This document shows, in pieces, positions 865-45,959 of a stretch of 49,955 nt of DNA. The notes beneath the pieces were generated by a model that saw only the letters and a list, made by a program, of their open reading frames with translations, ran no database searches and was not told where the DNA came from. A program made the translations under genes and the position numbers. The stretch lies in the IMG/VR virus record IMGVR_UViG_3300045988_130579. One strand, given 5' to 3'. The first letter of the stretch is position 1. Each line of letters starts with the position of its first letter. This DNA comes from a virus.

Positions 865-1488
865 TCAAAACGGTTCTGACTTATTAGTGTTCAGCTTGTC
901 AAAATGTTCTTCGCCTAAAATCTGTAGTTCTGCCATATCTGCAGCAAGGTTATATATTTTTGCATGCTTATTATTTCCATGTGTATCGGTAACCTTAGCT
1001 CTAAATTCGGCAATAGTCCCTAAGAAACAACCACAAGACACTGTTATACCTTTGTCTTTATTTTTGAAAAATGTCGTAAAACTAAATCTACTACCAATGC
1101 GACCGATCAATAAATAGTCAGCGTCGCCGCACACCCAAGCGTCGCCGCACACCCTAGCGTTGCCGTACACCTCAGCGTTGCCGTACACCTCAGCGTTGCC
1201 GTACACCTCAGCGTTGCCGCACACCCTAGCGTTGCCGCACACCCTAGCGTTGCCGTACACCCAAGCGTCGCCGTACACCTCAGCGTCGCCGTACACCTCA
1301 GCGTTGCCGTACACCCAAGCGTTGCCGTACACCCAAGCGTTGCCATCTTGCGCTAAGTTATCTTCTTTTTCCACATATCCACCAAGTTCACCAGCTTCAA
1401 CACTTCCAAAGCTAATTAAAGCCTTAATCCTAAATAATTTCTTGCCCCATTTTTCTATAAACTCTGCTGTCAACTCATACTTTTTCAT
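865..1488 (-). CDS. hexapeptide-repeat protein (GNAxVY x12, left-handed beta-helix-like) with unique N- and C-terminal domains
   Basis: 207-aa ORF with an AAGGAG RBS. The middle of the protein is encoded by perfect 18-bp tandem repeats. Confidence 0.75.
   Translation of the reverse strand: MKKYELTAEFIEKWGKKLFRIKALISFGSVEAGELGGYVEKEDNLAQDGNAWVYGNAWVYGNAEVYGDAEVYGDAWVYGNARVCGNARVCGNAEVYGNAEVYGNAEVYGNARVCGDAWVCGDADYLLIGRIGSRFSFTTFFKNKDKGITVSCGCFLGTIAEFRAKVTDTHGNNKHAKIYNLAADMAELQILGEEHFDKLNTNKSEPF
1123..1338. repeat. 12 tandem copies of an 18-bp unit (gttgccgtacacctcagc and variants), followed by a partial 13th copy
   Basis: Read directly from the sequence. The units differ at 2-4 positions only. 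Confidence 0.95.
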
Positions 1489-2619: not shown

Positions 2620-2665
2620 ATGCTCACTCCCTTTCTTTGAGGTGTTTCCCTTACCTCTTGACTAT

Positions 2666-2694
2666 ATTATACACCCCCCTCTGTATATTGTCAA
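2666..2694 (-). promoter_or_regulatory. Consensus sigma70 promoter P1 (TTGACA-17-TATAAT, with a G6 block in the spacer)
   Basis: Perfect -35 and -10 hexamers with a 17-nt spacer. It is one of four near-identical copies. Confidence 0.8.
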
Positions 2695-2748: not shown

Positions 2749-3091
2749 TTATTCGTCGGGGGGTAACATCATCTTCTGAATCTCGATTTCTATTGAATCG
2801 TTAATAGGCGCTTCACTCAAAACTATATATCCAATTCTGTTTATTATATAGCCTGTAGTGCCGGCTTGGAAAGCGTATTCTCCGGGTGGCAGTGTAAAAT
2901 CTGCAATCATAAGTACACCCGAACTGTCTGTAAAGCCAAGGTTCATCAAGAATGAATTGCCTTCGTCATACAAGCTGACCATAGCATTTGCTACAGGTTG
3001 CTTTGTATCATAGTCGATAACGGTTATCACAAAACTTGCCGGGCCCACTTCCCCCCCCAGATGTATAAACTAACAATCGTCTATTTAACAT
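2749..3091 (-). CDS. Tail-tip/receptor-binding-like protein with the N-terminus MLNRRLLVYTSGG. It is currently OUT of frame at a G8 tract (3051-3058). G7 would give a ~114-aa ORF carrying a carboxypeptidase-regulatory-like beta-sandwich.
   Basis: ATG at 3091 with a GGGGATAACT RBS. It reads 12 codons into the G8 tract and then stops after 27 aa. The long ORF (track 2749..3048) lies in the -1 frame. Confidence 0.6.
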
Positions 3092-3093
3092 AG

Positions 3094-3465
3094 TTATCCC
3101 CATTTCTGAATGTTTATTGCCACTTTAGCTACTACCCATTTACCATAGTTGGCCTTTAGATACTCATACAATGCTGGTGGCGATTTAAAAGCGTATTGAG
3201 CAATTTTCCCGTCGTCACTGGCCACAACGTTTTCATTTATGGAAAAACCGGCGCCCGGAATTTCGCAGGACAGCGTAAACTTACGCTGTCTAACAGCCGG
3301 GTCGATATCCATAAATTTAAGCAGGAAATTATTGTACTTGTTGGTTTGAAGCGTTTTGAGGTTTGCTTTTGCCTGTGGGAAATTCTGAACAGTCATACCT
3401 TTTGGGCAGTATCCTTCCGCTTTCAATTCCTCACGGTAGGCTTTCGCCTTTTCTGCTTTATTCAT
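3094..3465 (-). CDS. hypothetical protein (123 aa)
   Basis: ORF-track entry. It sits inside the tail-tip cassette but lacks the shared N-terminal motif. Confidence 0.55.
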   Translation of the reverse strand: MNKAEKAKAYREELKAEGYCPKGMTVQNFPQAKANLKTLQTNKYNNFLLKFMDIDPAVRQRKFTLSCEIPGAGFSINENVVASDDGKIAQYAFKSPPALYEYLKANYGKWVVAKVAINIQKWG

Positions 3466-3492
3466 GTCAATTCACTTCACTTTGTTTTTTTC

Positions 3493-3929
3493 TTAATAAT
3501 CTAAAACGTTTGGAGTTGCGCCGTTTATGCTTGCAGAGTAGGACATTATAATCTGAATATTCGTAGTAATTGCACCCTCTACTGCATCTCCTGCATATGA
3601 ACTTACCCATTGCTTAAAATCAGAAGAACTATTATACCTGTATACTTGTACCTCCCAATATTCAGGTTCGGGTATACTTCCTTCTTCTACAGTAGCCCAA
3701 CGCATATTATAAGTTTTACCGCCTGTTACACCAATATATCTAGGCACATTAGGGTCAACAAACTCATTTACATAGGTATTTTCTGTTGTGATTTTTAAAA
3801 CTTTCACACCTGGCGGGATAGTGATAGTAAAAGCATTTACAGTGCTACCCTTCCACAATACAGTTTCCTTTGTTGGCAGCGGGGGTTCAGATGTCCCCCC
3901 GGATATACTAGTAAACGTCTATTAAACAT
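3493..3929 (-). CDS. Tail-tip-like protein with the N-terminus MFNRRLLVYPGG. It is OUT of frame at a G6 tract (3895-3900); G7 would fuse it to the 121-aa ORF. The distal part also has its own TTG start at 3858 with an AAAGGAAA RBS.
   Basis: ATG at 3929 with an AAGGTGG RBS. The frame through the G6 tract stops after 31 aa. Adding one G gives a continuous ~145-aa ORF. Confidence 0.6.
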
Positions 3930-3945
3930 ATTCGTACCACCTTTT

Positions 3946-4641
3946 TTATTGGTCTATTAATTGAATATCTACTGTTTGCCCGTTCCTTCTGTCAAAGTAA
4001 TCTGTTACCGTAGTATCATTAAGCATTTCGAGGGAATAATAGGTAACACCACCATTATAAATAACGGTATTAAGCGTATACATAGAATCAGCCACATAGA
4101 TTGTTATTTGACTTATAGAACTCCGGGTATCTCCTGTTAACGCTACTGTTAACGTGTTTGCCATATACATACCTGTCGTTGTATCCATTATCGCGTCTAT
4201 TCCAACTTTTTCTATTGTGTGCTGCATAAATTGAGCCGGGCTTATCCCGCCAAAATCATTTTTAAAAAATCCCGATTGATAAAAACCCATTTCGACGTCG
4301 TAGTTTTGCCCTATAGTTAATTTAAAATCACAGTTAACGAGGGGGGATAAAACAACATACTCTGTTTCATATTCGACGTCGGTGGGAATAATCCATTTCC
4401 CTGTAGCCGCATTATATCCTGCCGCCGTTATCGTATAAGATATTTCTGTTCCTGTCGGCACTCCATAGAAAACGGCTATTCCTTTATTATCAGTATTAGC
4501 TAAATTGCTTTCACCGTTGTAAGTCAGCTCCACTCTTGCTGACCGAACGTGACCGCCGTCGGGCGTGTCTACATGGATTTCAAGCACAGAATAAGTTTGC
4601 TGCTCCCCCCCCGAATCTATTAATAAACGCCTGTTGAACAT
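3946..4641 (-). CDS. Tail-tip-like protein (231 aa) with the N-terminus MFNRRLLIDSGG. A G8 tract (4605-4612) lies in frame (ON).
   Basis: ORF track, AGGAGGATAACT RBS. The N-terminal region looks like a carboxypeptidase-regulatory-like beta-sandwich. Confidence 0.7.
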   Translation of the reverse strand: MFNRRLLIDSGGEQQTYSVLEIHVDTPDGGHVRSARVELTYNGESNLANTDNKGIAVFYGVPTGTEISYTITAAGYNAATGKWIIPTDVEYETEYVVLSPLVNCDFKLTIGQNYDVEMGFYQSGFFKNDFGGISPAQFMQHTIEKVGIDAIMDTTTGMYMANTLTVALTGDTRSSISQITIYVADSMYTLNTVIYNGGVTYYSLEMLNDTTVTDYFDRRNGQTVDIQLIDQ

Positions 4642-4654
4642 AGTTATCCTCCTA

Positions 4655-5140
4655 TCACGCTATACTTGCTGTTATAGGCAACTTTTCAATCTCTCTATTA
4701 TATCCGCAATACAATACGTTGCAGGGAAACATAAATAAACCAGAACTAACGGCAGCTCGAAGAATATCATTATTAAAATAAACTAATCCGTTCGCTGTAT
4801 CTAAATACTTTCCGTTATTTACATTGGTTAGCCGTAATGTCCCGCGTGCGCTACTAGCAAGGTCAGCCCAATTAAAGTAATCAACTCTATATTGCTGTCC
4901 TGCTGCCACGGCAACAACTTGCCGAAATAGTCGGCTATATGTGGCATTCATTGTACTACGCGGATACCAGTATAACCCTAATCGCGTCACATTTTCGGGA
5001 ATGGTAAATGTCGGCATATATTCCACTTGATTTTGAGCGTTATATTGATTTCGTGACGGAACAAAACAAGCGGTAGGAACATCAACGGGAATAGGAATAT
5101 CCCCCCCGGATGTGCTGACAAGCAATCGACGATTAAACAT
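4655..5140 (-). CDS. Tail-tip-like protein (~161 aa) with the N-terminus MFNRRLLVSTSGG. A G7 tract (5101-5107) lies in frame (ON).
   Basis: ORF track. The start is placed at the internal ATG at 5140, which has a GGAAGGAG RBS, because the motif is shared with the paralogues. Confidence 0.65.
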   Translation of the reverse strand: MFNRRLLVSTSGGDIPIPVDVPTACFVPSRNQYNAQNQVEYMPTFTIPENVTRLGLYWYPRSTMNATYSRLFRQVVAVAAGQQYRVDYFNWADLASSARGTLRLTNVNNGKYLDTANGLVYFNNDILRAAVSSGLFMFPCNVLYCGYNREIEKLPITASIA

Positions 5141-5178
5141 GTTGTTTCTCCTTCCGGGGACATGTTGTCCCCATGAAA

Positions 5179-5621
5179 TCATGGCTGCGGCATTGCGTCG
5201 CTTATCTCGCAGGGCACAGTGTTACCAACGTTGGCCCTAAAAAATTCGTAAAGCTGTTCTGTCAAATCCGGGTCGCCGCCAAACTCATAAACTGCCATAT
5301 CGTCAAAAAAATCAACGTATGATAGCGTTACATCCGGTAACGGTTCCCCGGCAGTTGTTGAAAGGCTGACAATCAAATCAGTGGGAAAGCCGGGCCCGTC
5401 CCACATGATATACATAGTGATGTACGTTCTCCCGGTCATATACAGAACTTTCACAGTTCCAGTTTTGCCTGAAATGGTGCGAGGGTTAGGAGTTATGGCT
5501 CCGTATGTCCCCCCTCGGTTCCGTCGCTGTAGCCGTAAAAGCCGCCGCTGTTGCCGACGGTAAGAGTGCCGCCTGTTGCAGCTTTTGGGGCGCCATATAT
5601 CAATAGTCTTCTGTTAATCAT
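5179..5621 (-). CDS. Tail-tip-like protein with the N-terminus MINRRLLIYG. It is OUT of frame at a G6 tract (5509-5514). G7 would fuse the 42-aa N-terminal ORF to the 91-aa ORF 5179..5454.
   Basis: Frame analysis. One extra G joins the ORF ending at 5493 to ORF 5179..5454 with no intervening stop. Confidence 0.55.
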
Positions 5622-5860
5622 CGTCGCGCCGCTCCACGTATTCGCTCGGCCTGTCACATGTGCCTTTGACATTGCAGCACCCGCAAATAAAGCCGCCCTC
5701 TGGACCGTAATACTTGCAGGCATGGCACCAGCCGACGTATTTAATCTTAAACACATTCACCACTCCCAGTTGTCAATTATCGCTTTACAACTCAAAATCG
5801 CCCATTATCTCTAGATATCTTCAAATATCGCCCGATTTTAAAGATATTCGGCAGATTGCT

Positions 5861-6091: not shown

Positions 6092-6105
6092 ACAGTTTAA
6101 ACTGG
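6036..6105. repeat. Bipartite ~70-bp repeat R1. It has two conserved boxes, GTTTAAACTGTGTGCATAATTTGC and AAATACCTCAAAATTAT, on the minus strand. The second copy is at 18551-18620.
   Basis: Direct comparison of the two loci. Both copies are intergenic and lie in late-gene regions. Confidence 0.8.
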
Positions 6106-6813
6106 ACCACCAGAGGTTCCGGACCCTGTATCTACGCCGGTGTGTCGGTGCGTACCGAATTCGATACCAGCGATAGAAGCACCCGTTGTTACGTCAAGAC
6201 GCTGCTGTGCCTTGATATTGCCCTGTACGGTCAAATTACCCGTAATGGTAGTATTACTATTTATCAAGGTGTTAGCCGTGTTCACAGTGACTTGTGACGG
6301 TCCTGTGATATTGATATTGCCGTCCGGCAAGACTTGGATGTAGCAGCTTGGCGTTTTGTTCAGGAAGCCGCCGACGTAAAAGCCATCAGAGATATCGAAC
6401 ATCCGGAATGTACCCGGCTGCACCGGCTCGGTGATACCTACATCGACATTCGACACATCCTGCTTGGCGAATACTGCAAGGCCGATATCTCCAACAACCG
6501 GGTCGCAAATCACTGCCGCCGCGCCGCCCTGAATGCGCAGATACGGCAGGCTGTACATCTGCGCTGGCTGTATGACGTTGTTTTCCGCGTCCATAGAACA
6601 AGTTAAGGGCAGGACGTCAACGCGCCCTGTGGGGGCAATTCCGCCCGCCTCAACGGCCTTTACGATAACCGGGAGTGCCGTGTAAAGGTTGCCGCCCATA
6701 AAAGACCGGATAAAGTAGTCCAGCTGGTTATATTCCGAATTCCCGGAATACGGCGTCCGGGTCGATTGTACAGCGGTCGGGTTACGCTGCTGCTTAACTG
6801 GCGTAGTTGGCAT
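6097..6813 (-). CDS. baseplate spike / central needle protein (gpV / Mu gp45-like)
   Basis: 238 aa. The C-terminus has beta-helix-like VTVNTANTLINSNTTITGNLTVQGNI followed by an HRH metal-binding-like motif. The gene sits after the baseplate hub genes. Confidence 0.65.
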   Translation of the reverse strand: MPTTPVKQQRNPTAVQSTRTPYSGNSEYNQLDYFIRSFMGGNLYTALPVIVKAVEAGGIAPTGRVDVLPLTCSMDAENNVIQPAQMYSLPYLRIQGGAAAVICDPVVGDIGLAVFAKQDVSNVDVGITEPVQPGTFRMFDISDGFYVGGFLNKTPSCYIQVLPDGNINITGPSQVTVNTANTLINSNTTITGNLTVQGNIKAQQRLDVTTGASIAGIEFGTHRHTGVDTGSGTSGGPV

Positions 6814-6827
6814 GTCTCCTCACCTCT

Positions 6828-7700
6828 CTAGCTATACTGATTGTTCTGCACAAATACGGCTGAAAAAGTGCTGTTCCATGCCGCTGTAGCGCTGGTATAG
6901 GCTTCGAGATTGTGCGTAACCTTCGTTACCTTCCATATCCCTGACGCCTTGGGCACCTCGCTGCGCACGTCTATCAGGCCGCCGATGTCGATGTTGTTAT
7001 CAAAGATAGACGACCACTCTAAGCCGTCCTGCGTGAAAGACGGGTAGCCGCGGCCGCCAGTTTCGGCAGAGATAACAACGGCGTTGCCCGTCTTGTTCGC
7101 CCCGCTCGGAATGGTTGTAACTGTGCCGTTTTCTATGAATACCTCGCAGTCAATCATTCTGGCCAGCTTGTATATCTTCTGAATCGGGCTGCCATTTATC
7201 GTGGTATTCGATATCTGGCCAGATACGCCTTGATTTTGATAAACATACTCTGCTTCTGTGGCGAACTGCTGGAACAGCGATGTAACGTCTGCCCGGCCCT
7301 TTATTCCTGTCGGTTTAGAAGGCAGCAGAGCGGCGTAAATTCCGCTGGCCGCGCTGACGCGAAACTTGACATCAGGTGTGCCTGTGTAGTCGGCCCATGC
7401 AAGTGTAAACTCGCCTTCAAAGCATTTGACCATATTCCCGCCGTTGGGACCGACTTCGACTAGAATTAAATTCTTCTGTGATTGCTGTGGCATAAAGCCT
7501 AAAGTAGTGGCGCTGGCCATCACGTCCGGCGGCAAGCCTGCTATCCACAAGTCAAGCGTCGTTTTGTCGTCGCCGCCCGGCTTAACAATCGTCGCCCCGG
7601 TGGCCAGTCCCTCAATGGTGATAGTGTTGTTACCGCCCGCAAACGTCCCCTGTCGAAGCGTGATTGTTGTCCTAATTGATTTTTGCGTAAAGCTGCCCAT
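6828..7700 (-). CDS. baseplate hub-like tail protein (290 aa)
   Basis: Position between the tape measure and spike genes. No motif was recognised. Confidence 0.45.
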   Translation of the reverse strand: MGSFTQKSIRTTITLRQGTFAGGNNTITIEGLATGATIVKPGGDDKTTLDLWIAGLPPDVMASATTLGFMPQQSQKNLILVEVGPNGGNMVKCFEGEFTLAWADYTGTPDVKFRVSAASGIYAALLPSKPTGIKGRADVTSLFQQFATEAEYVYQNQGVSGQISNTTINGSPIQKIYKLARMIDCEVFIENGTVTTIPSGANKTGNAVVISAETGGRGYPSFTQDGLEWSSIFDNNIDIGGLIDVRSEVPKASGIWKVTKVTHNLEAYTSATAAWNSTFSAVFVQNNQYS

Positions 7701-8038
7701 TATGCAATCTCACTTTCTGGAATGTAAACCAGCTTGTAGCGTGTACCTATCTTTTCCAGCTCAATTTGGCTGTTATGGCCGTCTGTGTCGACAAACATCA
7801 GATTGCCGTTAAAATTTACTTTTGGCTGCTGTATAATCCACTGGCTACTCATGCATATAGCGCCACGGCAGACTATATCAGTACCGACGTCGATATCAGC
7901 AAACAGCCAGCCATAACGCCAGTACAGCCTTATTTGACAAATCTGGCCGCCAAGAGTAACGCTGAACTTCTGGTCAGGTATGGCAGAAAGCGGGATAACC
8001 TTGTATCTGCTATTATCAGGATTAGAATTTAGCGCCAT
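7700..8038 (-). CDS. tail/baseplate protein (112 aa)
   Basis: ORF track; its start overlaps the neighbouring gene's stop, consistent with translational coupling. Confidence 0.45.
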   Translation of the reverse strand: MALNSNPDNSRYKVIPLSAIPDQKFSVTLGGQICQIRLYWRYGWLFADIDVGTDIVCRGAICMSSQWIIQQPKVNFNGNLMFVDTDGHNSQIELEKIGTRYKLVYIPESEIA

Positions 8039-8050
8039 ATTTCCACCGCC

Positions 8051-8641
8051 TTACCATGATTTTACAATAGCCCCAATGTCATAAAGCGTACTTGTTAGCT
8101 CGTCGTTACCTTCTTCGGTGTTCTTGCTGCCCGTGTTCTGCTTCGACGTGTCACTAGGATTTTCTGCGTCGCTGGTAGTAATCGCACCGCCCCCGGAGCT
8201 TACCACAACATCAGAGTAGCTGCTTTCAACCTCGCGGACTTCAATTAAAGCAAGGTCTACAATAAGCTGGCTCGTAGCGCCGTTTTCCTCAAATTTATAC
8301 TCATAACTCAACAAGTTCAGGTTTTTGTATTCGCGCAGCGGCGTGACGATTGAAAACGTCTCTGTGCTGGTCCGCAACGCTTCCAGCGTGTCCAGTACCT
8401 TCTGCAAGTCGGCAGGGCTTTTGCTGGACTTGGCCAGCGTAACCGTGCCTTCAAAGGGCATTATTGTCTTGTTGTAGGCGACAAAATAGCCCTTTTCTAC
8501 GGGGTCATAGGTAACATTGCTGTCACCTTTAAGCCGCCAGCCAAGAAAAGACGAAAAGTCAGTTAAGGTAGTACCGCGGGTATCCGCAAGCAGCCAGTTT
8601 GACCATTCGTTTTTTAGAAAGTCAAGTATCTTAACTGTCAT
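8051..8641 (-). CDS. tail protein (196 aa), downstream of the tape measure gene
   Basis: ORF track, operon position. Confidence 0.45.
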   Translation of the reverse strand: MTVKILDFLKNEWSNWLLADTRGTTLTDFSSFLGWRLKGDSNVTYDPVEKGYFVAYNKTIMPFEGTVTLAKSSKSPADLQKVLDTLEALRTSTETFSIVTPLREYKNLNLLSYEYKFEENGATSQLIVDLALIEVREVESSYSDVVVSSGGGAITTSDAENPSDTSKQNTGSKNTEEGNDELTSTLYDIGAIVKSW

Positions 8642-10105
8642 TTAGTCGTTCCCCCTTGTCCCGGTGGCAGTGCCCCAATACAGGCCGCTGCTTTTGTTGA
8701 TGCCTTTGCCCATGTCGGCGGCTATGCCGTCTGCATTAGTCGCTTGGGTAAAGATATCAATTTTGCCGATTTCAAGCGTCTTGTTGCCGCCAGCTCCGGC
8801 CCCTGTCAGCTGCGGCGTGATAGGTGTGAAGAACTGCTCATAGCGGCCGCCCAGAAACTCTTTGATACCGTCCAGCGAGGGCAGGTTGTCAATAATCTTT
8901 TTCAGCGTGTTCCATGCGTTTTCAAGCGGCGTAATAAAGTAGTCGTTGATAAAGCCGCCTATAGCTTTAAACGCCTGCGCTGCCGCTACACCAAGCCCGG
9001 CCACAAGCACAAGTACGGAATGCAGTATCATCCACAGGCCTTTTAGTATGGCCTTTAAGACTTCCCACGCTATTTGCGCAGCAGTCTTTAAAAAGTCCCA
9101 TGCGCCCTCAATGGCCGCCATTACTTCCTCGCCCGTGCCTAGCGTCTTCCACAGGCTTTCGAACTGGCTCTTACCGCCCTTGGCGTAGACATATAAGTCC
9201 TCTAGTATCAGGATAAGCCCGACAATGGCGGCGATAATCCACGTTATAGGGTTCGTCATTATGGCGATAAACAAGCTCCACAGGGACGGCAGGACTAAGG
9301 CGGTAACGACCAGCGCTATACCGGCCAGCGCAATCTCAAGCGCAAGGCTGTGTTTTTGCATAAAGACAAATGCCGACGTCATCGCTTTAGCCGCTTCCGT
9401 CAGAACTGGCGCGAACATCCGCATAACAGGTAGAAAAGTCATATTCAGGCTTCTTGTCAGTCTGTCCATAGCGTCATTATAGTTGGCGGCGATAACGGTA
9501 TCTTCTTTTTGAAATACGCCCAGTTCTCGTTCGTACCTGATAAGGTCCTGCATACCTTTTTTGCCCATCTGTAGCAGGCCTATCGTGCCTTCATCTAGCT
9601 GCAAGCGTTTCAGCATACCGCTGGAAGTCGCCTTGTCCATGCCTTCAACGGATCCGGCGACGTCGGTCAATACGTCGAACACGTCGCGGGCCTTACCGGT
9701 GGCGTCAAGTGTGGCAACGCCCATGCTTTCAAAAAAGGGCAGTAGGCGGCTTTTTCCGGTTACAGCAATTTTTTGCAGCTCGGCGCCTAGTCGTTCGGCC
9801 GTACCATAGAACGCCTGAACGCTGCCGCCAGCAAGTTTAGACGCCACGGCCCATGATTGCAGTTTCGGCGCGTCTGCGCCTATGCGGTCAGCTATCTTGC
9901 CAAGTTCGTCAGCAACAGCCGTCAGGTTTTTAACCTCTGACATTATGAAGCCGACAGAAGCAAGCGCGCCAAACTTTGCCATCGCGCCCGCCTTTATCCG
10001 GTCAGCAAAGCTGCTAACTTTGCTTTCAGCCTGCTTTAGTCCTTTATCTAGGCCAGTATTATCCATTTTAACGGCTATCAGCAGCGAATCAATTATATTA
10101 GCCAT
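8642..10105 (-). CDS. tail tape measure protein (487 aa)
   Basis: Follows the chaperone frameshift pair. It has long helical regions and a central hydrophobic segment (LALEIALAGIALVVTALVLPSLWSLFIAIM). Confidence 0.7.
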   Translation of the reverse strand: MANIIDSLLIAVKMDNTGLDKGLKQAESKVSSFADRIKAGAMAKFGALASVGFIMSEVKNLTAVADELGKIADRIGADAPKLQSWAVASKLAGGSVQAFYGTAERLGAELQKIAVTGKSRLLPFFESMGVATLDATGKARDVFDVLTDVAGSVEGMDKATSSGMLKRLQLDEGTIGLLQMGKKGMQDLIRYERELGVFQKEDTVIAANYNDAMDRLTRSLNMTFLPVMRMFAPVLTEAAKAMTSAFVFMQKHSLALEIALAGIALVVTALVLPSLWSLFIAIMTNPITWIIAAIVGLILILEDLYVYAKGGKSQFESLWKTLGTGEEVMAAIEGAWDFLKTAAQIAWEVLKAILKGLWMILHSVLVLVAGLGVAAAQAFKAIGGFINDYFITPLENAWNTLKKIIDNLPSLDGIKEFLGGRYEQFFTPITPQLTGAGAGGNKTLEIGKIDIFTQATNADGIAADMGKGINKSSGLYWGTATGTRGND

Positions 10106-23351: not shown

Positions 23352-23390
23352 ATAATGTTGTTATATAACTTTTAAAAGGCGGTGTTTGTA

Positions 23391-24038
23391 ATGAGTTGGC
23401 TTTTATATGTGTGCCTTGACCTGATTTTTACCGTATTATGCTATTTAACTAACTGGTTTGTCGTCATTTTTGCTGATGAAAAAGGGCAGCTGCCTAAAGT
23501 ATTCAAGCTGTGGCAAACCTACGATAATCCCCTTGATATCCGCTGGCAGGTGCTCGAAGTCGTCCCGAAGTTCCTGCGCTATGACTTCGACAGTCACTAT
23601 ATTTATCACTACGAAATGAAAGGCGACGGCTATATGCGTCCCGGCTTCGTACAGCTCTGGTATAACGACTTCACCACAAAAGAACGTGTGCAGCGCTATT
23701 TCTGCCGCCTGCTGTGGCTTATGCGCAACAACGCTTACGGTTTTGGCTACTATGTCACCGGCCGGGCGGTAGACTTTTCAAAGGTCAAAGTATTGCGGAA
23801 AATCAAGGAACTTAACAACGAGCAATGGTTTAGCTATGTTCCCGGCTTTCTCGCCCCGTGGTCCTTCTACTACTGTAAGCAATACTGCCCGTGGTTCCGG
23901 GTCCGCCTGTATCTCGGCTGGAAGATGAAGTTTCTCGACGATTACACGCAGGTAAACCGCTGCCAGATAGCTTTTTCGTTCAATCCGTTCAAGGGCCTTG
24001 AAGAAGATAGCACCGGGGGGGATAAAAATGAACTGTAA
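23391..24038 (+). CDS. membrane-anchored Trp/Tyr-rich protein (216 aa)
   Basis: ORF track. It has an N-terminal transmembrane helix. It is on the plus strand, opposite to the bulk of the genome. Confidence 0.55.
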   Translation: MSWLLYVCLDLIFTVLCYLTNWFVVIFADEKGQLPKVFKLWQTYDNPLDIRWQVLEVVPKFLRYDFDSHYIYHYEMKGDGYMRPGFVQLWYNDFTTKERVQRYFCRLLWLMRNNAYGFGYYVTGRAVDFSKVKVLRKIKELNNEQWFSYVPGFLAPWSFYYCKQYCPWFRVRLYLGWKMKFLDDYTQVNRCQIAFSFNPFKGLEEDSTGGDKNEL

Positions 24039-24804
24039 AACATATGAGCCGGGAGAATTGCGCGACCTGCTCGGTCTATCCGATAGCCAGACTATAGCGG
24101 ACCAATTAGCCGCCATGTCAGACTTTTCAGCGTGTATAGGCTATAACACATGCGCCGACGTTATAAAAGGCGTCAGAAAGGCGGATTTTCCGCCCTGTAG
24201 GGCTTACCTGCTGAATGTTGGGTCAAGGTGCAGCGTCGTAGTTACTAATCGTCCCGCCGGAAGTATGGTATACAAGCTCTACACCTGCAAGGACTTTGCC
24301 GAAGCAAGCGAATTCGCGCACTCATTAGTTGATACTCTGTATATGCCGATACCCCGCCTGATGAATCGCATTAATGAGCAGCTTACATTTATCCCCCATT
24401 CTAATCGCCTGAACGTATCAAACAACAGCTATAACGTTCTGGTGACTATCACCAACCGCCGGGATTGCACACTGACCATAACAGACAACAATGTTGATGA
24501 TATCCCCGAAATGCTGCGGGAATATGATATCACCATTGAGCCGAAACGCCTGACCAAGTGCCGCAGCGTTATAGCCTTTTACCGGGAGTTATACGGCTAT
24601 AGCCGCACGGAACTAAATGACTTGACCGGAATCAGTCCCACAACGCTGGACCGTTACGAGCGCGGGGAAAGGTCACTGCTTAAAACTAACGTCTACTACA
24701 TCATGCTGCTGGCCAGAGTTTTTAACGTCACGATTGACCACTTAATAGAAAAAGAAATTCAGCTTAATCCGCAGGCGCTGAAAGAACTGGAAGAAGAATA
24801 CTAA
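24028..24804 (+). CDS. protein with a C-terminal XRE-type helix-turn-helix and a ~180-aa N-terminal domain of unknown function
   Basis: The HTH reads IAFYRELYGYSRTELNDLTGISPTTLDRYERGERSLLKTNVYYIMLLARVFNVTIDHLI. The start overlaps the previous gene, preceded by a G7 RBS. Confidence 0.6.
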   Translation: MNCKTYEPGELRDLLGLSDSQTIADQLAAMSDFSACIGYNTCADVIKGVRKADFPPCRAYLLNVGSRCSVVVTNRPAGSMVYKLYTCKDFAEASEFAHSLVDTLYMPIPRLMNRINEQLTFIPHSNRLNVSNNSYNVLVTITNRRDCTLTITDNNVDDIPEMLREYDITIEPKRLTKCRSVIAFYRELYGYSRTELNDLTGISPTTLDRYERGERSLLKTNVYYIMLLARVFNVTIDHLIEKEIQLNPQALKELEEEY

Positions 24805-27927: not shown

Positions 27928-27951
27928 AACTCACACCCTTTCTATGCTTTT

Positions 27952-27980
27952 ATTATACACCCCCCTCTGTATATTGTCAA
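27952..27980 (-). promoter_or_regulatory. consensus sigma70 promoter P2 (TTGACA-17-TATAAT)
   Basis: Matches P1 exactly over 36 nt. Confidence 0.8.
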
Positions 27981-31395: not shown

Positions 31396-31725
31396 TCACC
31401 CGCATTTTCGGGGGGGGACTTCTTCATCTACATCATAAAAAGCCCTTTCATTAACTACTGTTCTTTTGATTGCTTTTGCAAAAAACATCTCTGGTTTAAT
31501 GCCAAAGCCTTCCTGTGCCGTCTGCACTAAATGAACAACGCTATTAACACACCTGTCGAGACTTACCCGGTTAGCCATGACTAAATAGCCATTTGCTTCT
31601 TCTGTGTCCAAACTTTCAACTTGTGCTAGTGCAATAATGTTGACCCCATATTTTTTCTCTAAATTTAAAATTTCGTCGTTTAAGTTTGAAGCTTCTTCCT
31701 TTAGATTTTCTCTTGTAATAATCAC
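31396..31725 (-). CDS. hypothetical protein (109 aa) with a C8 tract 4 codons before its stop
   Basis: ORF track. The poly-G tract at 31408-31415 encodes PP. Confidence 0.5.
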   Translation of the reverse strand: MIITRENLKEEASNLNDEILNLEKKYGVNIIALAQVESLDTEEANGYLVMANRVSLDRCVNSVVHLVQTAQEGFGIKPEMFFAKAIKRTVVNERAFYDVDEEVPPRKCG

Positions 31726-32629: not shown

Positions 32630-32777
32630 TCAATCCACCTTACTAATAAATATACAAGCCATATTCCATACAGGATAAATATAGCAGCCGCTATATCACA
32701 GCTTAATATTTTTCGTGCCTTCTGTATTATTATTCTTTTATTCGGGCTCGTCTATTGTTCCCCCTTTCTTTGCCTAT

Positions 32778-32806
32778 ATTATATACCCCCCTGCGTACAT
32801 TGTCAA
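32778..32806 (-). promoter_or_regulatory. consensus sigma70 promoter P3 (TTGACA-17-TATAAT)
   Basis: The -35 overlaps the stop codon of the XRE-type regulator gene. Confidence 0.75.
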
Positions 32807-33768: not shown

Positions 33769-34076
33769 AGTTACAGAAGTCATAAACCTACCTTGTTTTA
33801 GGCAAAGCTAAAGCGCGGGCCACATGTCCCAATTTTTTAAAATCGAGTTCATGTAGCTTAAGGTTTTAAGGTTTGAAGTTTTAAATGTCTAGCGAGCATT
33901 TTAAAACGGCTTCTATTTTTTTGCCTTCTTTGATTATAGTCGCTTCCGGCGGAAGCGTCAATCTTAAATTTTAGCGCATCGCTTCCCCCCCCAGCTCCCG
34001 AAATCTCCGCTAATCTCTGTTTTACTCCGTTTTTCGCGTTTTTTTCGCGGATTTTCTTACACGAAAAAAATTTATA

Positions 34077-38886: not shown

Positions 38887-38915
38887 GCAATCACTCCTTT
38901 CTATTCTATGCCTAT

Positions 38916-38944
38916 ATTATATACCCCCCTGTGCGCGATGTCAA
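38916..38944 (-). promoter_or_regulatory. consensus sigma70 promoter P4 (TTGACA-17-TATAAT)
   Basis: Near-identical to P3. Confidence 0.8.
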
Positions 38945-39555: not shown

Positions 39556-42513
39556 TTAGCCGCTATACGGCAACGCTACCACGTCACAGACTTGGATACT
39601 AAAGCTATCTGTATCGTCAACGATAGCGACTACATTGATGATATTGCTGGCATTTGCTGTTAGCGACGGAGCTACGCCCTTCGGGTAGTAAACCGCTGCA
39701 CCGCTTGGGAACTGCCATGTAACAGTTGGTGCAGTTGCGCCAGTTGCAAACCAGAAAGTTAAAGTTTTACACATGTATGGCGTGCTGCCTACAGTGGCGT
39801 GGAAGCTCATGTTTGAGAAATTCATAGTAAGACTTGCAGCGTCATTTATGGATGTATTTATCAGATAGACGTTTGCTGCTGCTTGGTAACTTATGGTATT
39901 CCCGGTATTCGGAGTTGAGTAGTAAGTATTCTCGGCCGTACCGCAGAAGTACAGGCAGTTTTCTGTGTTGTCTGCACTGATAACGCCGTTACCAACGCCC
40001 CCTTGACTGCCCACATATAACCGCCGCGCAACTCTTACGTCAGTGGCGTCAGCAGGGCACTGCAAAGCCCAGCCGCTAGTGCCTGACCCTAATTCTAGGC
40101 CGATACTAGAATTTCCCGTGCGCAGGTGCATTGCTGTTCCGTTACAGTCCAGTATGTTCTGACTAGCATTTTTTATCGCGAAATTTCTGCTGATTTCACT
40201 GGAATTAATCATTACTTCACTTGCTTCAAAAGCTGCTTTATGGCTGTTACCGTTAAATTGGGCAGCAATCATATTCCCGTCCAAAATTTGCAATGGATAA
40301 TCGCCAATAGTAGCCTTTCTAATACCTACTGATTCTAGCAGAGTGGCGCTTCCTATCTGTAGTATGTTTGGGTAGATAGTGGCTTGATTCGATGAAAACT
40401 CGGCAAGGTCTACCTCGTCCTGTTCTTCGCGAGTTTGAAGTACTACATTTTCCCCGGTTCCCGCCGTCAAATTAAGCTGGCCAGTAGATACAGCTGTTAG
40501 ACTTGCACCCTGCACGTTACTACCACTAATATAGCCTAAATTGATAGCCCCCGACGCTGAACTGCCTGCGCCACTTGCTACAGCTATGTAGCTTTTAAAG
40601 TGGGTAGAGTTGTTGAACGTGTTTACGCCAGTGAAGTTGTTATTCCCCGCCGCCGTAACGTCGCCGCCACCAGCCCCGGCCACGCTGTCATCAACATACT
40701 TTTTGGTGACTGCCTGCGTGTCGGTAGTAGGAGCGGTAGACGGTAAGTAAATCGGTCCTGTTACCGTGCCACCTGTCAGGGGCAAGAATTCACCTTGGCC
40801 AGCTTCTATGGTGATATTCTGCGTCCCGTCGAACGGTACGCCGTTAATAGTGCGGGCAGTGGCAAGTTTGGTCGCTGTGTTTGCGTTGCCCAGCCAGTTT
40901 GCGACGCCGACATTTGTTATTCGCGCAAATTCAAAGGCATTATGCGAAAGGATTGCTGTTTCACTTTCGTTAGTAGTTATGGATGTAGACGCAGTATTAT
41001 TGCCAATTTTGAAGTAATGTCCAGTGCTTTCTGTAGCAATATAGTTTAATGCCCCTGTGGTAGAAGCTATGATATTCGCTTGTACTGTTGCTGTACTGGG
41101 TTTTACGCCAAAAATAACCTGTCCTTGACTGCCTGCCGCTGTGCCGTTTGATACAGCAATGTTTGCTCTGAAAGCATTTAAGGCAGTAAATGTATTAGCT
41201 GAATTTAATTGAGCATAGCCGCTTAAATCGGTATCACCTGCCAAGATATCCCACTTTTCGCCGTCCCATGCCACGTTGTCCCCGGCTTCAATGTTGTGGT
41301 CGGGGTCTGCCTGTTTGACGTTGTAAACGTCGCCTACTTGCTGGCCGCTGGTCGGCAGGTTGGCGTATGTTTCAACGGACCCCTTATATTTATAAACTGT
41401 CGCTAGTCCCAGCTGTGCGGCAGTTACTTTATGGGGGTTATCGTAGTCGGCCTTGTGCGCGTCCAGCGCATTAGTTACAGCCGTAATATCGCCCTCGGCG
41501 TTGCCAAGGCTTCCTTGCAGTTCTGTGATATCGCCTTCAATGCTGGTTATGTCACTCTTGATAGTGGTGATTTCTCCGTTGATGGATGTGATACTGTTAT
41601 TAATCGTTTCGACCGCAGAAGTCAATTCGCTGGCCAGCGCATACTTTATCCAACCCGTCCAGCTGCTTACCTCGATAGGGCTACTGTCGGGTACAATGGT
41701 GCCGAAGCGAACATAACATGCGCCGTCAGCCTGTGCGATAAACTTCTGTCGGATATAGGTTTCATTATAATCGTCATCAACATCCAGCCAGCCCGGACCC
41801 GCAACAGGGCCGTTCGTGTTGGCCGTGCCTTGAAGGAATGCCCTTTCCAGCTCTACATGTGTATTGAAGTCGATGTTATCTGTAACGTTTTCATACCAGC
41901 GCAGTGTATCAACTATAGGCTCCAAGACGTCTAATCGCTGGTTAGACTGGTCGGCAGAAGCTTTAGCCTCGTTAGCCGCTGATAGTGCCTGTGAAGCGTT
42001 TTCAATGGCAGTATTAGCTGTAGACTGCGCATTGTCAGCAGACGTTTGAGCGTCGTTCGCTGATTTCTGCGCTGCGTCGGCCGCCTTCTGTGCAGCGTCT
42101 GCGCTGGCCTGTGCGTTGTCCGCTTTGCTTACTGCCGTATTCGCAGTATTAAGCGCAGTATCCGCTGTTTGCTGTGCGTTCTGCGCAGCTGTTATGGCAT
42201 TAGTGGCCATTTCTATAGCTGCCTGCGCTGCGTTGTAAGCCTGCTGCGCAATCTCTCGCGCTTCCCTTGCTATCTCGTCCGACGAATAGGCGATGTTGCC
42301 TATCTCATTTATAGCGTCCTCTGTCTGCTGTTCCATTGACCAGCCGGGCAGTGGTCCTGCTGGCGGAACGTATTGAAATTGATAATAAGCGCGGGCCTGT
42401 ATTTTGTCGGCAATGTCTGCCGCCCGTGCATTGCTGCGCGCTATCATAGCCTTGACAACATTAGAGTAATATTCCATGTGTCTAACATCCTTTCTGATTG
42501 ATTTAGTTTCCAA
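39556..42513 (-). CDS. tail fibre protein (985 aa)
   Basis: Long Ala/Gln/Asn-rich coiled coil, then a beta-rich distal region with an NPHKVTAAQLGL fibre-repeat motif. Confidence 0.75.
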   Translation of the reverse strand: METKSIRKDVRHMEYYSNVVKAMIARSNARAADIADKIQARAYYQFQYVPPAGPLPGWSMEQQTEDAINEIGNIAYSSDEIAREAREIAQQAYNAAQAAIEMATNAITAAQNAQQTADTALNTANTAVSKADNAQASADAAQKAADAAQKSANDAQTSADNAQSTANTAIENASQALSAANEAKASADQSNQRLDVLEPIVDTLRWYENVTDNIDFNTHVELERAFLQGTANTNGPVAGPGWLDVDDDYNETYIRQKFIAQADGACYVRFGTIVPDSSPIEVSSWTGWIKYALASELTSAVETINNSITSINGEITTIKSDITSIEGDITELQGSLGNAEGDITAVTNALDAHKADYDNPHKVTAAQLGLATVYKYKGSVETYANLPTSGQQVGDVYNVKQADPDHNIEAGDNVAWDGEKWDILAGDTDLSGYAQLNSANTFTALNAFRANIAVSNGTAAGSQGQVIFGVKPSTATVQANIIASTTGALNYIATESTGHYFKIGNNTASTSITTNESETAILSHNAFEFARITNVGVANWLGNANTATKLATARTINGVPFDGTQNITIEAGQGEFLPLTGGTVTGPIYLPSTAPTTDTQAVTKKYVDDSVAGAGGGDVTAAGNNNFTGVNTFNNSTHFKSYIAVASGAGSSASGAINLGYISGSNVQGASLTAVSTGQLNLTAGTGENVVLQTREEQDEVDLAEFSSNQATIYPNILQIGSATLLESVGIRKATIGDYPLQILDGNMIAAQFNGNSHKAAFEASEVMINSSEISRNFAIKNASQNILDCNGTAMHLRTGNSSIGLELGSGTSGWALQCPADATDVRVARRLYVGSQGGVGNGVISADNTENCLYFCGTAENTYYSTPNTGNTISYQAAANVYLINTSINDAASLTMNFSNMSFHATVGSTPYMCKTLTFWFATGATAPTVTWQFPSGAAVYYPKGVAPSLTANASNIINVVAIVDDTDSFSIQVCDVVALPYSG

Positions 42514-42784
42514 GCGTTACCTGTAGGGCGCAGCTGCTAAACTTTGTTCCGCCGCTGCTGGTAAGCTCTATCGTGGCACCTTGTTCGATACTATAAGCCC
42601 ACGTATTAGCTGCTGCACTAGATTTTGTGTTTCCCCAATAGTGGCCCTTTGAACCTGCCTTTGTAGTGCTCCATGACATACTAAGAGTACCTATTACATT
42701 TCCGTTAACCTTGACAGTTACAGTGTTTGAACCGCGGTCTGCGAATGCCCGCGCAAAGTTATACAGCGGTTCGTTGACGCTCAT
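42503..42784 (-). CDS. small structural protein (93 aa)
   Basis: ORF track, fibre module. Confidence 0.45.
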   Translation of the reverse strand: MSVNEPLYNFARAFADRGSNTVTVKVNGNVIGTLSMSWSTTKAGSKGHYWGNTKSSAAANTWAYSIEQGATIELTSSGGTKFSSCALQVTLGN

Positions 42785-42799
42785 GTGTATCGCCCCTTT

Positions 42800-43105
42800 T
42801 TATTCAGAAAGTGGCAACCATCTTACATAACTAGCACCGCTAACGCTCCATGACGCCCCTTTAGGGACCGGGAAAGAGATAGAGCAAGGACCTTGGCCGT
42901 ATTTACTACGGCCTACCGTGTACATGACTTGTAGGCCGTTGACGTATCCCGCAACAGTTGTGTTATCATAACTTGTTGAAGTTATAAAGCCATCTGTAGC
43001 GGCCACGCCGCTGCGGCCTACAGTTGAATAAGCTCCCATGCTGACCGGCTTCGGTTTGGGTATCTCCCCTATAGACGTGTCTATAGCGTCCTGCACTTCG
43101 TCCAT
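42800..43105 (-). CDS. small structural protein (101 aa); the ATG lacks an SD
   Basis: ORF track. Confidence 0.4.
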   Translation of the reverse strand: MDEVQDAIDTSIGEIPKPKPVSMGAYSTVGRSGVAATDGFITSTSYDNTTVAGYVNGLQVMYTVGRSKYGQGPCSISFPVPKGASWSVSGASYVRWLPLSE

Positions 43106-43188
43106 CGTCAGCGAACCGATGAATTCGAGCAGGGTTTGCCACGTCGCGCCGTCCGTGCCCCTTTTTAAAATCTAGTGACGCAATCTAA

Positions 43189-43204
43189 TGTTTCACGTGA
43201 AACA
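43189..43204. promoter_or_regulatory. 16-bp palindrome TGTTTCACGTGAAACA (copy 3)
   Basis: Exact match. It lies in a 100-nt intergenic gap within the baseplate/fibre operon. Confidence 0.7.
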
Positions 43205-43205
43205 T

Positions 43206-43889: not shown

Positions 43890-43900
43890 GTTCTGACCCC

Positions 43901-45109: not shown

Positions 45110-45126
45110 TTTCGCAGCTCCTTTCT

Positions 45127-45720: not shown

Positions 45721-45731
45721 ACCATCACCGC

Positions 45732-45959
45732 CTAGCTGTTTTTGCAAAAATTGATAAAGTCTTCCGGCGGATTGGTGATATAGTATTCTCGGCCGTTTTT
45801 GGTTTTAATATAGTAATGGTCGAGCTTTAACTTTTTCCCCGCCTTTTCCGGGTTATCGTGATAAAACGTTTCTTTCAGCTTGAATACATCAATGCCGCCG
45901 TCAGCTGTGATATACGCTTTAAGCTCGTCGATATACTCCAGCAGCTCCGGTTTAATCAT
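45732..45959 (-). CDS. hypothetical protein (75 aa)
   Basis: ORF track. Confidence 0.45.
   Translation of the reverse strand: MIKPELLEYIDELKAYITADGGIDVFKLKETFYHDNPEKAGKKLKLDHYYIKTKNGREYYITNPPEDFINFCKNS

What the first reader, a model, noticed from the sequence alone, without database searches (positions are those of the whole stretch)
3895..3929. Tail-tip gene 2: a G6 tract separates the MFNRRLL leader from a 121-aa ORF that also has its own TTG start
The ATG at 3929 has an AAGGTGG RBS and encodes MFNRRLLVYPGG. It then stops after 31 aa. One additional G fuses it in frame to the ORF 3493..3858. That ORF also has a TTG start with an AAAGGAAA RBS at 3858. So two products are conceivable: a free distal domain, or an anchor-tagged version whose amount depends on tract length.
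Basis: seen in the sequence. Interest (0 to 1): 0.6.

Follow-up and report, generated by a model that had tools for sequence, protein, structure and literature searches.

The report
Poly-G on/off switches in phage tail-tip genes
A widespread, uncultured human-gut phage carries five small genes next to its tail spike that share the opening peptide M-x-NRRLL and a run of 6-8 G's, and one-base changes in those runs switch each gene on or off; the flagged gene is one of them, caught in the off state.

Summary
On the minus strand, ATG 3929 encodes MFNRRLLVYPGG, a G6 run lies at 3895-3900, and the frame stops after 30 codons. One extra G joins it to ORF 3493-3858.

It is not a one-off. Five neighbouring genes (a-e, 2749-5621) share the leader M[FLI]NRRLL and each has a G6-G8 run. 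In this window b and c are in frame; a, d and e are out of frame.

In 47 related gut-phage contigs, 40 of 97 such genes are in frame and 57 are not. A ±1 G change restores at least 53 of the 57.

Contigs 99.5-99.9% identical to the window differ by indels almost only in these runs (18 of 20). The same gene d allele occurs with G7 as an intact 145-aa protein (L147), and over 1,000 protein clusters match that fused product (the 120 best all 141-146 aa).

The best explanation is DNA-level poly-G phase variation of a set of putative tail-tip or receptor-binding proteins. Phage poly-G switching is already known from Campylobacter Fletchervirus. The new elements are the shared-leader, multi-gene layout and the gut-phage setting.

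A separate TTG-started product is not supported as a designed feature. Virion location, host and switching rate were not tested.

The parts
3895..3900 (-). Poly-G run of gene d. It is G6 here, which is out of frame; G7 is the in-frame length.
   Evidence: It is G7 in L028, L001, L049-L051 and L144-L147. It is the only indel in gene d between the window and L028, L001 or L147.
3837..3929 (-). Gene d leader ORF as it stands: MFNRRLLVYPGG followed by 18 out-of-frame codons and a stop. The SD-like AAGGTGG lies at 3937-3943.
3493..3918 (-). Gene d distal-domain reading frame. The frame is open from 3918. The mechanical ORF call starts at TTG 3858 and gives 121 aa. With G7 the full protein is 145 aa.
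   Evidence: The exact fused protein is in public data. The exact 121-aa call is on 16 contigs.
5179..5621 (-). Gene a (MINRRLLIYGAPK...). Its poly-G run at 5509-5514 is G6 here, which is out of frame and stops at 5493. G7 gives 147 aa.
   Evidence: The G6/G7 difference is the only difference across 12,371 nt between L017 and L020.
4655..5140 (-). Gene b (MFNRRLLVSTSGG...). Its poly-G run at 5101-5107 is G7, in frame, giving 161 aa.
   Evidence: It is G8 and out of frame in L001, L002, L108, L111 and L117.
3946..4641 (-). Gene c (MFNRRLLIDSGG...). Its poly-G run at 4605-4612 is G8, in frame, giving 231 aa.
   Evidence: It is G7 and out of frame in L108, L111, L113, L117 and L147.
2749..3091 (-). 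Gene e (MLNRRLLVYTSGG...). Its poly-G run at 3051-3058 is G8 here, which is out of frame. G7 gives 113 aa. The distal domain has weak CarboxypepD_reg / prealbumin-like matches.
   Evidence: G6, G7 and G8 are all seen in contigs at least 99.5% identical to the window.
6097..6813 (-). Context: the tail spike or tip gene (GpV Apex motif), immediately upstream of the cassette.
6828..7700 (-). Context: the baseplate hub gene (E217_GP41 family).
3094..3465 (-). A 123-aa gene between d and e. It has no leader, no run and no family match, and its role is unknown.

Best explanation
Gene d is one of five paralogous contingency genes (a-e). Each has three parts:
- its own SD and start codon, followed by a conserved leader peptide M[FLI]NRRLL[VIF];
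- a Gly-Gly segment written as a G6-G8 run. In b-e it follows the leader directly (likely a linker); in a it lies about 105 nt into the gene;
- a distal beta-rich domain that is unrelated in sequence to those of the other four.

Slipped-strand mispairing in the G run during phage DNA replication adds or removes one G. That puts the distal domain in or out of frame with the leader, and each gene switches independently. Phage progeny are therefore a mixture of up to 2^5 combinations.

In this window a, d and e are off and b and c are on.

Shown here:
- The runs are selected at the nucleotide level.
- They are the dominant indel sites among near-identical genomes.
- Both states of the same allele exist in nature.
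- Out-of-frame distal ORFs stay intact.

Inferred, not shown:
- The proteins are tail-tip or receptor-binding accessories docked by the leader peptide.
- The mixture serves as bet-hedging against variable host or gut surfaces.
For: 1. Family-wide module. All five window genes, and 97 genes in 47 related contigs, have a run of five or more G's (G5-G9, mostly G6-G8) at nt 29-34 after the start.

2. Selection on both peptide and DNA. N3, R4, R5, L6 and L7 are invariant across 67 distinct leaders while using 2-6 synonymous codons each. The two Gly codons are GGG in 55 of 56 and 42 of 45 cases, against 14% genome-wide.

3. States. 40 genes are in frame and 57 out of frame. At least 53 of the 57 regain an ORF of 80 aa or more with ±1 G.

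4. Hypermutability.
- 12 of 15 orthologue clusters have an indel at the run, against 21 indel runs in about 5,600 other columns.
- In near-identical pairs, 9 of 45 G/C runs of 6 or more changed length, against 1 of 78 A/T runs of 6 or more and 0 of 39 G/C runs of 5.
- L017 and L020 differ across 12,371 nt only by G6/G7 in gene a.
- Nine contigs 99.5-99.9% identical to the window have 20 indels, and 18 of them fall in runs a, b, c or e.

5. Same allele in both states. The 121-aa out-of-frame call is on 16 contigs, in a cluster of 882 member sequences. The exact fused 145-aa protein is on L147, which is 99.6% identical to the window and whose only three indels are in runs c, d and e.

6. Control. 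A G7 run elsewhere in the genome (24015-24021) is G7 in 17 of 18 related contigs, so generic homopolymer miscalling is not the cause.

7. Tail context. The cassette starts about 480 nt downstream of the spike gene, past two short ORFs, in an E217-like tail module (hub, then spike).
Against: - No read-level data were available, so within-population heterogeneity and switching rate were not measured.
- Particular combinations recur in independent samples, for example a6/b7/c8 and a7/b8/c7. Switching may therefore be slower than in classical contingency loci, or particular sets may be selected.
- Some genomes have every cassette gene out of frame in the consensus (L003, L017). The proteins are therefore dispensable, and their virion role is unproven.
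- The distal domains match no PHROG, no PDB sequence and no Pfam family above threshold.
- The AlphaFold2 model of d is low-confidence, with pLDDT 54.
- The host is unknown.
Confidence: 0.8

Rival explanations
1. Recoding. Out-of-frame alleles are still expressed at a set ratio, either by ribosomal frameshifting on the G run (G_GGG_GGA formally fits X_XXY_YYZ) or by RNA-polymerase slippage. The DNA run length would then tune expression rather than switch it.
For: In gene d a -1 slip on G_GGG_GGA would give exactly the G7 product. 38 of the 53 restorable out-of-frame genes need the equivalent of a -1 shift. One orthologue group is out of frame in all nine contigs examined.
Against: 15 out-of-frame genes need the opposite shift, so a single programmed direction cannot serve the family. 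There is no stable downstream RNA structure (z = -0.60). From established knowledge, efficient -1 sites use A/U-rich YYY triplets, and transcriptional slippage needs A/T runs of about 9 or more. The in-frame length differs between genes (G7 or G8), and real DNA length changes are abundant.
Confidence: 0.1
2. Sequencing or assembly error. The G-run length differences are homopolymer miscalls, and all the genes are really intact.
For: Homopolymers are error-prone on some platforms. The contigs are metagenome assemblies of varied coverage, and some end in a run (L005).
Against: The same out-of-frame state (G6 in gene d) is reproduced in ten independent assemblies examined, out of 16 that carry the product. 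57 of 97 genes are out of frame, which is far above any consensus error rate. A control G7 run is constant in 17 of 18 contigs. A/T runs of equal length almost never differ. High-coverage contigs (for example 230x, L037) are included.
Confidence: 0.04
3. Two-product design. The TTG at 3858 with AAAGGAAA makes a free, leaderless distal domain when the run is out of frame.
For: TTG with a weak SD at 7-nt spacing is present. Gene callers do call the 121-aa product.
Against: SD-preceded internal starts are not enriched in out-of-frame genes (7 of 53) compared with in-frame genes (7 of 40). The motif is present in in-frame alleles too and is lost in 2 of 7 relatives. The codons that form it encode conserved residues (K21, E22, L25) of the full-length protein.
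Confidence: 0.08
4. Gene decay. The frameshifted copies are redundant paralogues turning into pseudogenes.
For: Some genomes have all copies out of frame. L001 gene c carries a nonsense codon and an interrupted run.
Against: At least 53 of 57 out-of-frame copies keep a distal ORF of 80 aa or more that a single G restores. By my estimate, an unselected frame would stay open over about 120 codons with a probability of only about 0.002. The 121-aa product sits in a cluster of 882 member sequences, and 12 of the 15 listed are full 121-aa calls. The frameshifts sit only in the runs.
Confidence: 0.03

Closest known systems
Hypermutable poly-G tracts in receptor-binding-protein genes of Campylobacter Fletchervirus phages (Sorensen et al. 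2021, Cell Rep 35:109214; described in bioRxiv 10.1101/2025.10.21.683753 and PMC10877375)
   Same: Both have intragenic poly-G runs in phage genes for host-recognition proteins, up to four RBP genes per phage, and frameshift on/off states that create phage subpopulations.
   Different: The phage lineage is unrelated: an E217/PB1-like tail, 46% GC, human gut, host unknown. No cassette protein matches any PHROG family. Here all the genes share a 7-aa leader, and in four of the five the run sits at a fixed place just after it. The runs are G5-G9 rather than 7-11. I could not read the 2021 paper itself.
Neisseria opa gene family (CTCTT repeats in the leader-peptide coding region of multiple paralogues). 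This comparison is from my own knowledge and was not looked up.
   Same: Both are multi-copy families with a common N-terminal leader. The repeat is embedded in the 5' coding region, each copy switches independently, and surface-adhesin expression is combinatorial.
   Different: The opa genes are bacterial and use a pentanucleotide repeat inside a cleaved signal peptide. This case is a phage with a mononucleotide run that in most copies probably encodes a linker, and the leader is not a signal peptide because it has no hydrophobic core.
Contingency loci of coliphages T2 and T4 (Gomez, Barrick and Waters, bioRxiv 10.1101/2025.10.21.683753)
   Same: Both involve reversible frameshifts in short homopolymers of phage genes, interpreted as bet-hedging.
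   Different: In T2 and T4 the loci are single and scattered (agt, rIIA). Across BASEL coliphages, repeats were under-represented in tail fibres. Here they are concentrated in a tail-tip cassette.
Poly-G tract in a baseplate gene of PB1-like Pseudomonas phages (Ceyssens et al. 2009, as cited)
   Same: The tail module is of the same broad type (DUF3383 sheath, E217_GP41 hub), with a poly-G run in a baseplate-region gene.
   Different: I know this only from a one-line citation. It concerns a single gene, it was not studied further, and I did not check it for a shared-leader paralogue family.
Other phage tropism switches: Mu G-segment inversion and DGRs such as Bordetella BPP-1
   Same: The outcome is the same: a phage population that displays alternative host-recognition domains.
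   Different: The mechanisms differ (site-specific inversion, or reverse-transcriptase mutagenesis). A Y[AVIM]DD motif screen found no reverse-transcriptase-like ORF in the window.

Membership tests
Simple-sequence-repeat contingency locus (phase variation by slipped-strand mispairing) | A homopolymer or short repeat lies inside the coding region or promoter. | tested here: met
   G6-G8 runs lie in all five genes.
Simple-sequence-repeat contingency locus (phase variation by slipped-strand mispairing) | A ±1 unit change toggles the reading frame between an intact and a truncated product. | tested here: met
   At least 53 of 57 out-of-frame genes are restored by ±1 G. Window genes a, d and e are all restored at G7.
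Simple-sequence-repeat contingency locus (phase variation by slipped-strand mispairing) | Repeat length is polymorphic among otherwise near-identical genomes, and far more so than the flanking DNA. | tested here: met
   18 of 20 indels fall in the runs. L017 and L020 differ only at a run.
Simple-sequence-repeat contingency locus (phase variation by slipped-strand mispairing) | The repeat is maintained by selection against the genome's codon bias. | tested here: met
   GGG is 14% of Gly codons genome-wide but 55 of 56 and 42 of 45 at the two linker positions.
Simple-sequence-repeat contingency locus (phase variation by slipped-strand mispairing) | A high, reversible switching rate is measured within a clonal population. 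| not testable with these tools
   There are no reads and no culture. Recurrent combinations across samples leave the rate open.
Phage receptor-binding or tail-tip accessory protein | The gene lies in the tail or baseplate module. | tested here: met
   The cassette lies just downstream of the spike (GpV Apex) and hub (E217_GP41) genes.
Phage receptor-binding or tail-tip accessory protein | A conserved N-terminal attachment part is combined with exchangeable, divergent C-terminal domains. | tested here: met
   The leader is invariant. Distal domains a-e show no pairwise similarity, with all E values above 0.5. The cassette is mosaic between relatives.
Phage receptor-binding or tail-tip accessory protein | Sequence or fold similarity to known RBPs or carbohydrate-binding modules. 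| tested here: inconclusive
   There are no PHROG or PDB sequence hits. Only sub-threshold Pfam matches were found (e: CarboxypepD_reg, 20.9 bits against a 32.3 cut-off; b: RicinB_lectin_2, 14.8 bits). The AF2 model of d is all-beta but has pLDDT 54.
Phage receptor-binding or tail-tip accessory protein | Presence in the virion and binding to a host receptor. | not testable with these tools
   The phage is uncultured and its host is unknown.
Programmed -1 ribosomal frameshift site | A slippery heptamer X_XXY_YYZ in the zero frame. | tested here: inconclusive
   G_GGG_GGA fits formally in gene d, but an all-G heptamer is not a known efficient site (from established knowledge).
Programmed -1 ribosomal frameshift site | A stimulatory structure 5-9 nt downstream. 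| tested here: not met
   The fold of 3820-3905 has z = -0.60, and 54 of 200 shuffles fold as well.
Programmed -1 ribosomal frameshift site | The same shift direction and a fixed site across homologues. | tested here: not met
   38 genes need a -1 shift and 15 need +1. In-frame alleles are common.
Fletchervirus RBP1-4 protein families | Sequence homology to those proteins. | tested here: not met
   No phage protein family (PHROGs v4) matches any cassette protein at E<=0.01. The family of domain d has only 23 members at the 50%-identity level among 1.84 billion representatives.

The most novel reading that the evidence does not exclude
A very common human-gut phage uses a universal 7-residue plug (MxNRRLL) to dock any of several interchangeable distal domains at its tail tip. 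A poly-G run gates each domain, usually as its Gly-Gly linker, and the five genes switch independently. Each burst would then release up to 32 virion surface types, a combinatorial bet-hedging device. The shared leader would also act as a recombination site that shuffles domains between genomes.
Probability: 0.45. Interest if true: 0.75.

Novelty: new variant of a known kind. Interest (0 to 1): 0.65.

Why it matters
Poly-G phase variation of phage host-recognition genes has so far been shown experimentally only in Campylobacter phages. This would extend it to an unrelated, highly prevalent gut phage lineage; a protein search with the fused gene d product alone found 1,174 clusters.

The modular layout (shared leader, G-run, swappable domain, five independent switches) makes testable predictions. 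Public gut metagenomes should show mixed run lengths at five defined sites, and the run states should track host-strain or mucosal changes over time.

There is also a practical annotation point. Gene callers currently split these genes or start them at spurious internal codons: the 121-aa call of gene d sits in a cluster of 882 member sequences.

Tried and rejected
- Host identification failed. A spike-protein scan and a leader-plus-poly-G DNA pattern scan of 185,579 species genomes found no prophage. The three pattern hits, in Niabella, Pectobacterium and Omnitrophota, are at chance level by my estimate. The window has no tRNA and no Rfam match. The nearest cultured relatives of the sheath are Burkholderia, Aeromonas and Pseudomonas myophages at 33-37% identity.
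- Function of the distal domains could not be assigned. PHROGs, Pfam and PDB sequence searches gave nothing usable. The AlphaFold2 model of d, from a shallow alignment of about 90% identity, reached only pLDDT 54, so I ran no fold search.
- A DGR was considered because gene d has hypervariable positions. A Y[AVIM]DD motif screen found no reverse-transcriptase-like ORF.
- A Tat or Sec signal was considered for 'NRRLL' and rejected, because no hydrophobic core follows (direct reading of the sequence).
- I asked whether the G7 at 24015-24021 is a sixth switch that fuses two ORFs into 475 aa. I rejected this because it is G7 in 17 of 18 relatives, and it sits where an SD for the downstream ATG would be.
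- The Sorensen 2021 paper is not in the library.

Full report
**1.

On the minus strand, an SD-like AAGGTGG (3937-3943) precedes ATG 3929. The ORF reads MFNRRLLVYPGG, passes through a G6 run (3895-3900) and stops at 3837 after 30 codons. The other frame is open from 3918 to 3493. One extra G gives a 145-aa ORF, MFNRRLLVYPGGTSEPPLPTKETVLWKGST....

**2. It is one of five genes built the same way**

Directly downstream of the baseplate hub (6828-7700, E217_GP41) and the spike (6097-6813, GpV Apex motif) lie five minus-strand genes. All start M[FLI]NRRLL and each carries a poly-G run.

| Gene | Start | Run | Length here | State | In-frame product |
|---|---|---|---|---|---|
| a | 5621 | 5509-5514 | G6 | out of frame | 147 aa at G7 |
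| b | 5140 | 5101-5107 | G7 | in frame | 161 aa |
| c | 4641 | 4605-4612 | G8 | in frame | 231 aa |
| d | 3929 | 3895-3900 | G6 | out of frame | 145 aa at G7 |
| e | 3091 | 3051-3058 | G8 | out of frame | 113 aa at G7 |

Beyond the leader, the five distal parts show no pairwise similarity (all E > 0.5).

**3. Both the leader and the run are under selection**

- Across 67 distinct leader sequences from relatives, N3, R4, R5, L6 and L7 never change, although each uses 2-6 synonymous codons. The peptide is therefore selected.
- The next two Gly codons are GGG in 55 of 56 and 42 of 45 cases.
- GGG is only 14% of Gly codons in this genome. Of 56 Gly-Gly pairs in long ORFs, the only two written GGGGGG are in genes b and c. 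The G run itself is therefore selected at the DNA level.
- G7 occurs 12 times in the window against 3.0 expected.

**4. Relatives**

- The annotated phage collection holds only three unannotated human-faecal records with a match.
- A spike-protein scan returned 17 IMG/VR loci and 29 human-gut metagenome loci. Many come from 45-51 kb contigs, which are probably whole genomes.
- These carry 97 leader-plus-run genes with G5-G9 runs at nt 29-34. 40 are in frame and 57 are out of frame. At least 53 of the 57 regain an ORF of 80 aa or more with ±1 G: 38 need +1 G and 15 need -1 G.
- Nearly every orthologue group with three or more members has two or more run lengths.

**5. The runs are the hot spots**

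- 12 of 15 orthologue groups have an indel at the run, against 21 indel runs in about 5,600 other aligned columns.
- Among near-identical pairs, L017 and L020 differ across 12,371 nt by a single G in gene a's run. L011 and L012 have four indels, of which three are poly-G. L024 and L025 have three, of which two are poly-G.
- By homopolymer class in such pairs, 9 of 45 G/C runs of 6 or more changed length. Only 1 of 78 A/T runs of 6 or more did, and 0 of 39 G/C runs of 5.
- The window and L028 are 98.4% identical over 2,430 nt. They have two indels, both in G runs, and one is G6/G7 in gene d.

**6. The same allele occurs in both states**

- A protein search with the fused 145-aa gene d product found 1,174 clusters. 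The best 120 are all 141-146 aa and cover the query fully.
- The 121-aa TTG-started call from this window is found exactly on 16 contigs. It sits in a cluster of 882 member sequences, most of those listed being 121-aa calls.
- Ten of those contigs were fetched. One is 100% identical to the window over 5,366 nt. The other nine are 99.5-99.9% identical and have 20 indels, 18 of them in runs a, b, c or e. Their run combinations differ, for example 6-7-8-6-8, 7-8-7-6-7, 6-7-8-6-7, 7-7-7-6-8 and 6-7-8-6-6.
- The exact fused version of this window's gene d exists (P0187). Its contig L147 is 99.6% identical to the window, and its only three indels are in runs c, d and e.

**7. Control against sequencing error**

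A G7 run outside the cassette (24015-24021) is G7 in 17 of 18 related contigs. Consensus miscalling of G7 is therefore not the explanation. The out-of-frame states are also reproduced in independent assemblies, including high-coverage ones.

**8. Recoding is unlikely**

- Out-of-frame genes need shifts in both directions.
- There is no stable structure downstream of the gene d run (z = -0.60).
- From established knowledge, all-G heptamers are not efficient slippery sites and G runs of 6-8 are poor substrates for transcriptional slippage.
- A low level of recoding cannot be excluded.

**9. The TTG product**

- SD-preceded internal starts in the distal frame are no more frequent in out-of-frame genes (7 of 53) than in in-frame genes (7 of 40).
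- In gene d the motif is equally present in in-frame alleles and is lost in 2 of 7 relatives.
- Its bases encode conserved residues of the full-length protein.
- I regard it as incidental. Proteomics would settle the question.

**10. What the proteins do (inference)**

- Their position next to the hub and spike, a shared N-terminal peptide with swappable beta-rich distal domains, mosaic cassette content between relatives, and hypervariable positions within domain d all fit tail-tip or receptor-binding accessory proteins.
- They are dispensable, since some genomes have all copies out of frame. The phage also has a separate 985-aa tail fibre with wedge genes elsewhere (39556-45747).
- No database family, PDB sequence or confident model supports a specific fold. 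Domain d is nearly confined to this lineage, with 23 hits among 1.84 billion representatives.

**11. Known comparators**

- Fletchervirus phages of Campylobacter have poly-G runs of 7-11 in RBP genes that create subpopulations.
- T2 and T4 have homopolymer contingency loci.
- PB1-like phages were noted to have a poly-G run in a baseplate gene.
- Four literature searches found no description of this gut-phage cassette.
- From my own knowledge, the closest architecture is the Neisseria opa family, with a repeat in the common leader of many independently switching paralogues.

**12. Verdict**

This is a real and well-supported feature. It is a new variant of a known kind (poly-G contingency switching in phage host-recognition genes), with an unusually regular multi-gene architecture in a prevalent gut phage. 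Untested points are the within-population switching rate, virion location, receptor and host.

Noticed in passing
window 2662-2684, 27948-27970, 32774-32796, 38912-38934 (minus strand): There are four copies of a motif, ACAGAGGGGGG-TGTATAATATAG (0-3 mismatches; 0 expected by chance). It is a G6 run abutting an extended -10-like TGnTATAAT, so these are probably phage promoters. One relative (L116) has a 12-nt indel right at the first copy.
   Followed up: partly
window 31410-31417 (G8 on the + strand, C8 in minus-strand ORF 31396-31725): This is another variable run outside the cassette: G7 in 8 related contigs and G8 in 2 plus the window. G7 changes the C-terminus of the 109-aa protein to a 125-aa form.
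   Followed up: partly
window 33985-33992 (C8), in a stretch with no ORF of 30 aa or more: The run length differs among the three relatives found (C7 twice, C8 once). It may be a regulatory or non-coding poly-G/C run.
   Followed up: partly
window 24015-24021 (G7, + strand): The run sits at the overlap of ORF 23382-24038 and the HTH-regulator ORF 23998-24804, and G6 would fuse them into 475 aa. It is G7 in 17 of 18 relatives, so it is stable and more likely serves as an SD for the ATG at 24028.
   Followed up: yes
window 2758-2763 (G6 on the + strand, C6 near the 3' end of gene e): A second homopolymer inside gene e shows a 1-nt indel in L114. It could alter the C-terminal tail of protein e.
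   Followed up: no
L024 8938-8959 compared with L025: Two contigs that are 99.9% identical differ by a cluster of six substitutions confined to the leader of the last cassette gene. This looks like gene conversion or recombination between paralogous leaders, and could be the route by which distal domains are shuffled.
   Followed up: no
L108-L117 and the window (run table): Run combinations are not random. The combinations a6/b7/c8 and a7/b8/c7 each recur in several independent samples. This suggests either inheritance of states (slow switching) or selection for particular sets.
   Followed up: no
window 865-1488 (minus strand): A 207-aa protein has many tandem GNA(W/E/R)V(Y/C)G heptapeptide repeats (phrog_7964, function unknown). 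The repeat region differs between the near-identical contigs L011 and L012.
   Followed up: no
window 39556-45747 compared with 6097-10105: The tail module is split. TMP, Dit-like, hub, spike and the cassette are separated from the wedge genes and the 985-aa tail fibre. In the direction of transcription, and around the end of this permuted window, the intervening roughly 7 kb holds a DNA methylase, a PAPS reductase, a radical-SAM fragment and other unrelated genes.
   Followed up: partly
gene d protein alignment A1 (residues about 29-34, 79-86, 95 and 110-124): Amino-acid variation among 28 alleles is concentrated in a few short patches while the rest is nearly invariant. This is the pattern expected of a binding surface under diversifying selection. 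A motif screen found no reverse-transcriptase-like ORF.
   Followed up: partly
window 5614-5763 (minus strand) and about 5768: A 49-aa Cys-rich ORF (CxxC...CxCC) overlaps the region upstream of gene a. A G3/G4 indel relative to L028 lies just upstream of it. Gene callers sometimes start gene a at ATG 5756 instead of 5621.
   Followed up: no
L005 (contig end) and L088: Some assembled contigs end exactly inside a cassette poly-G run. This would be expected if reads in that sample are heterogeneous in run length.
   Followed up: no
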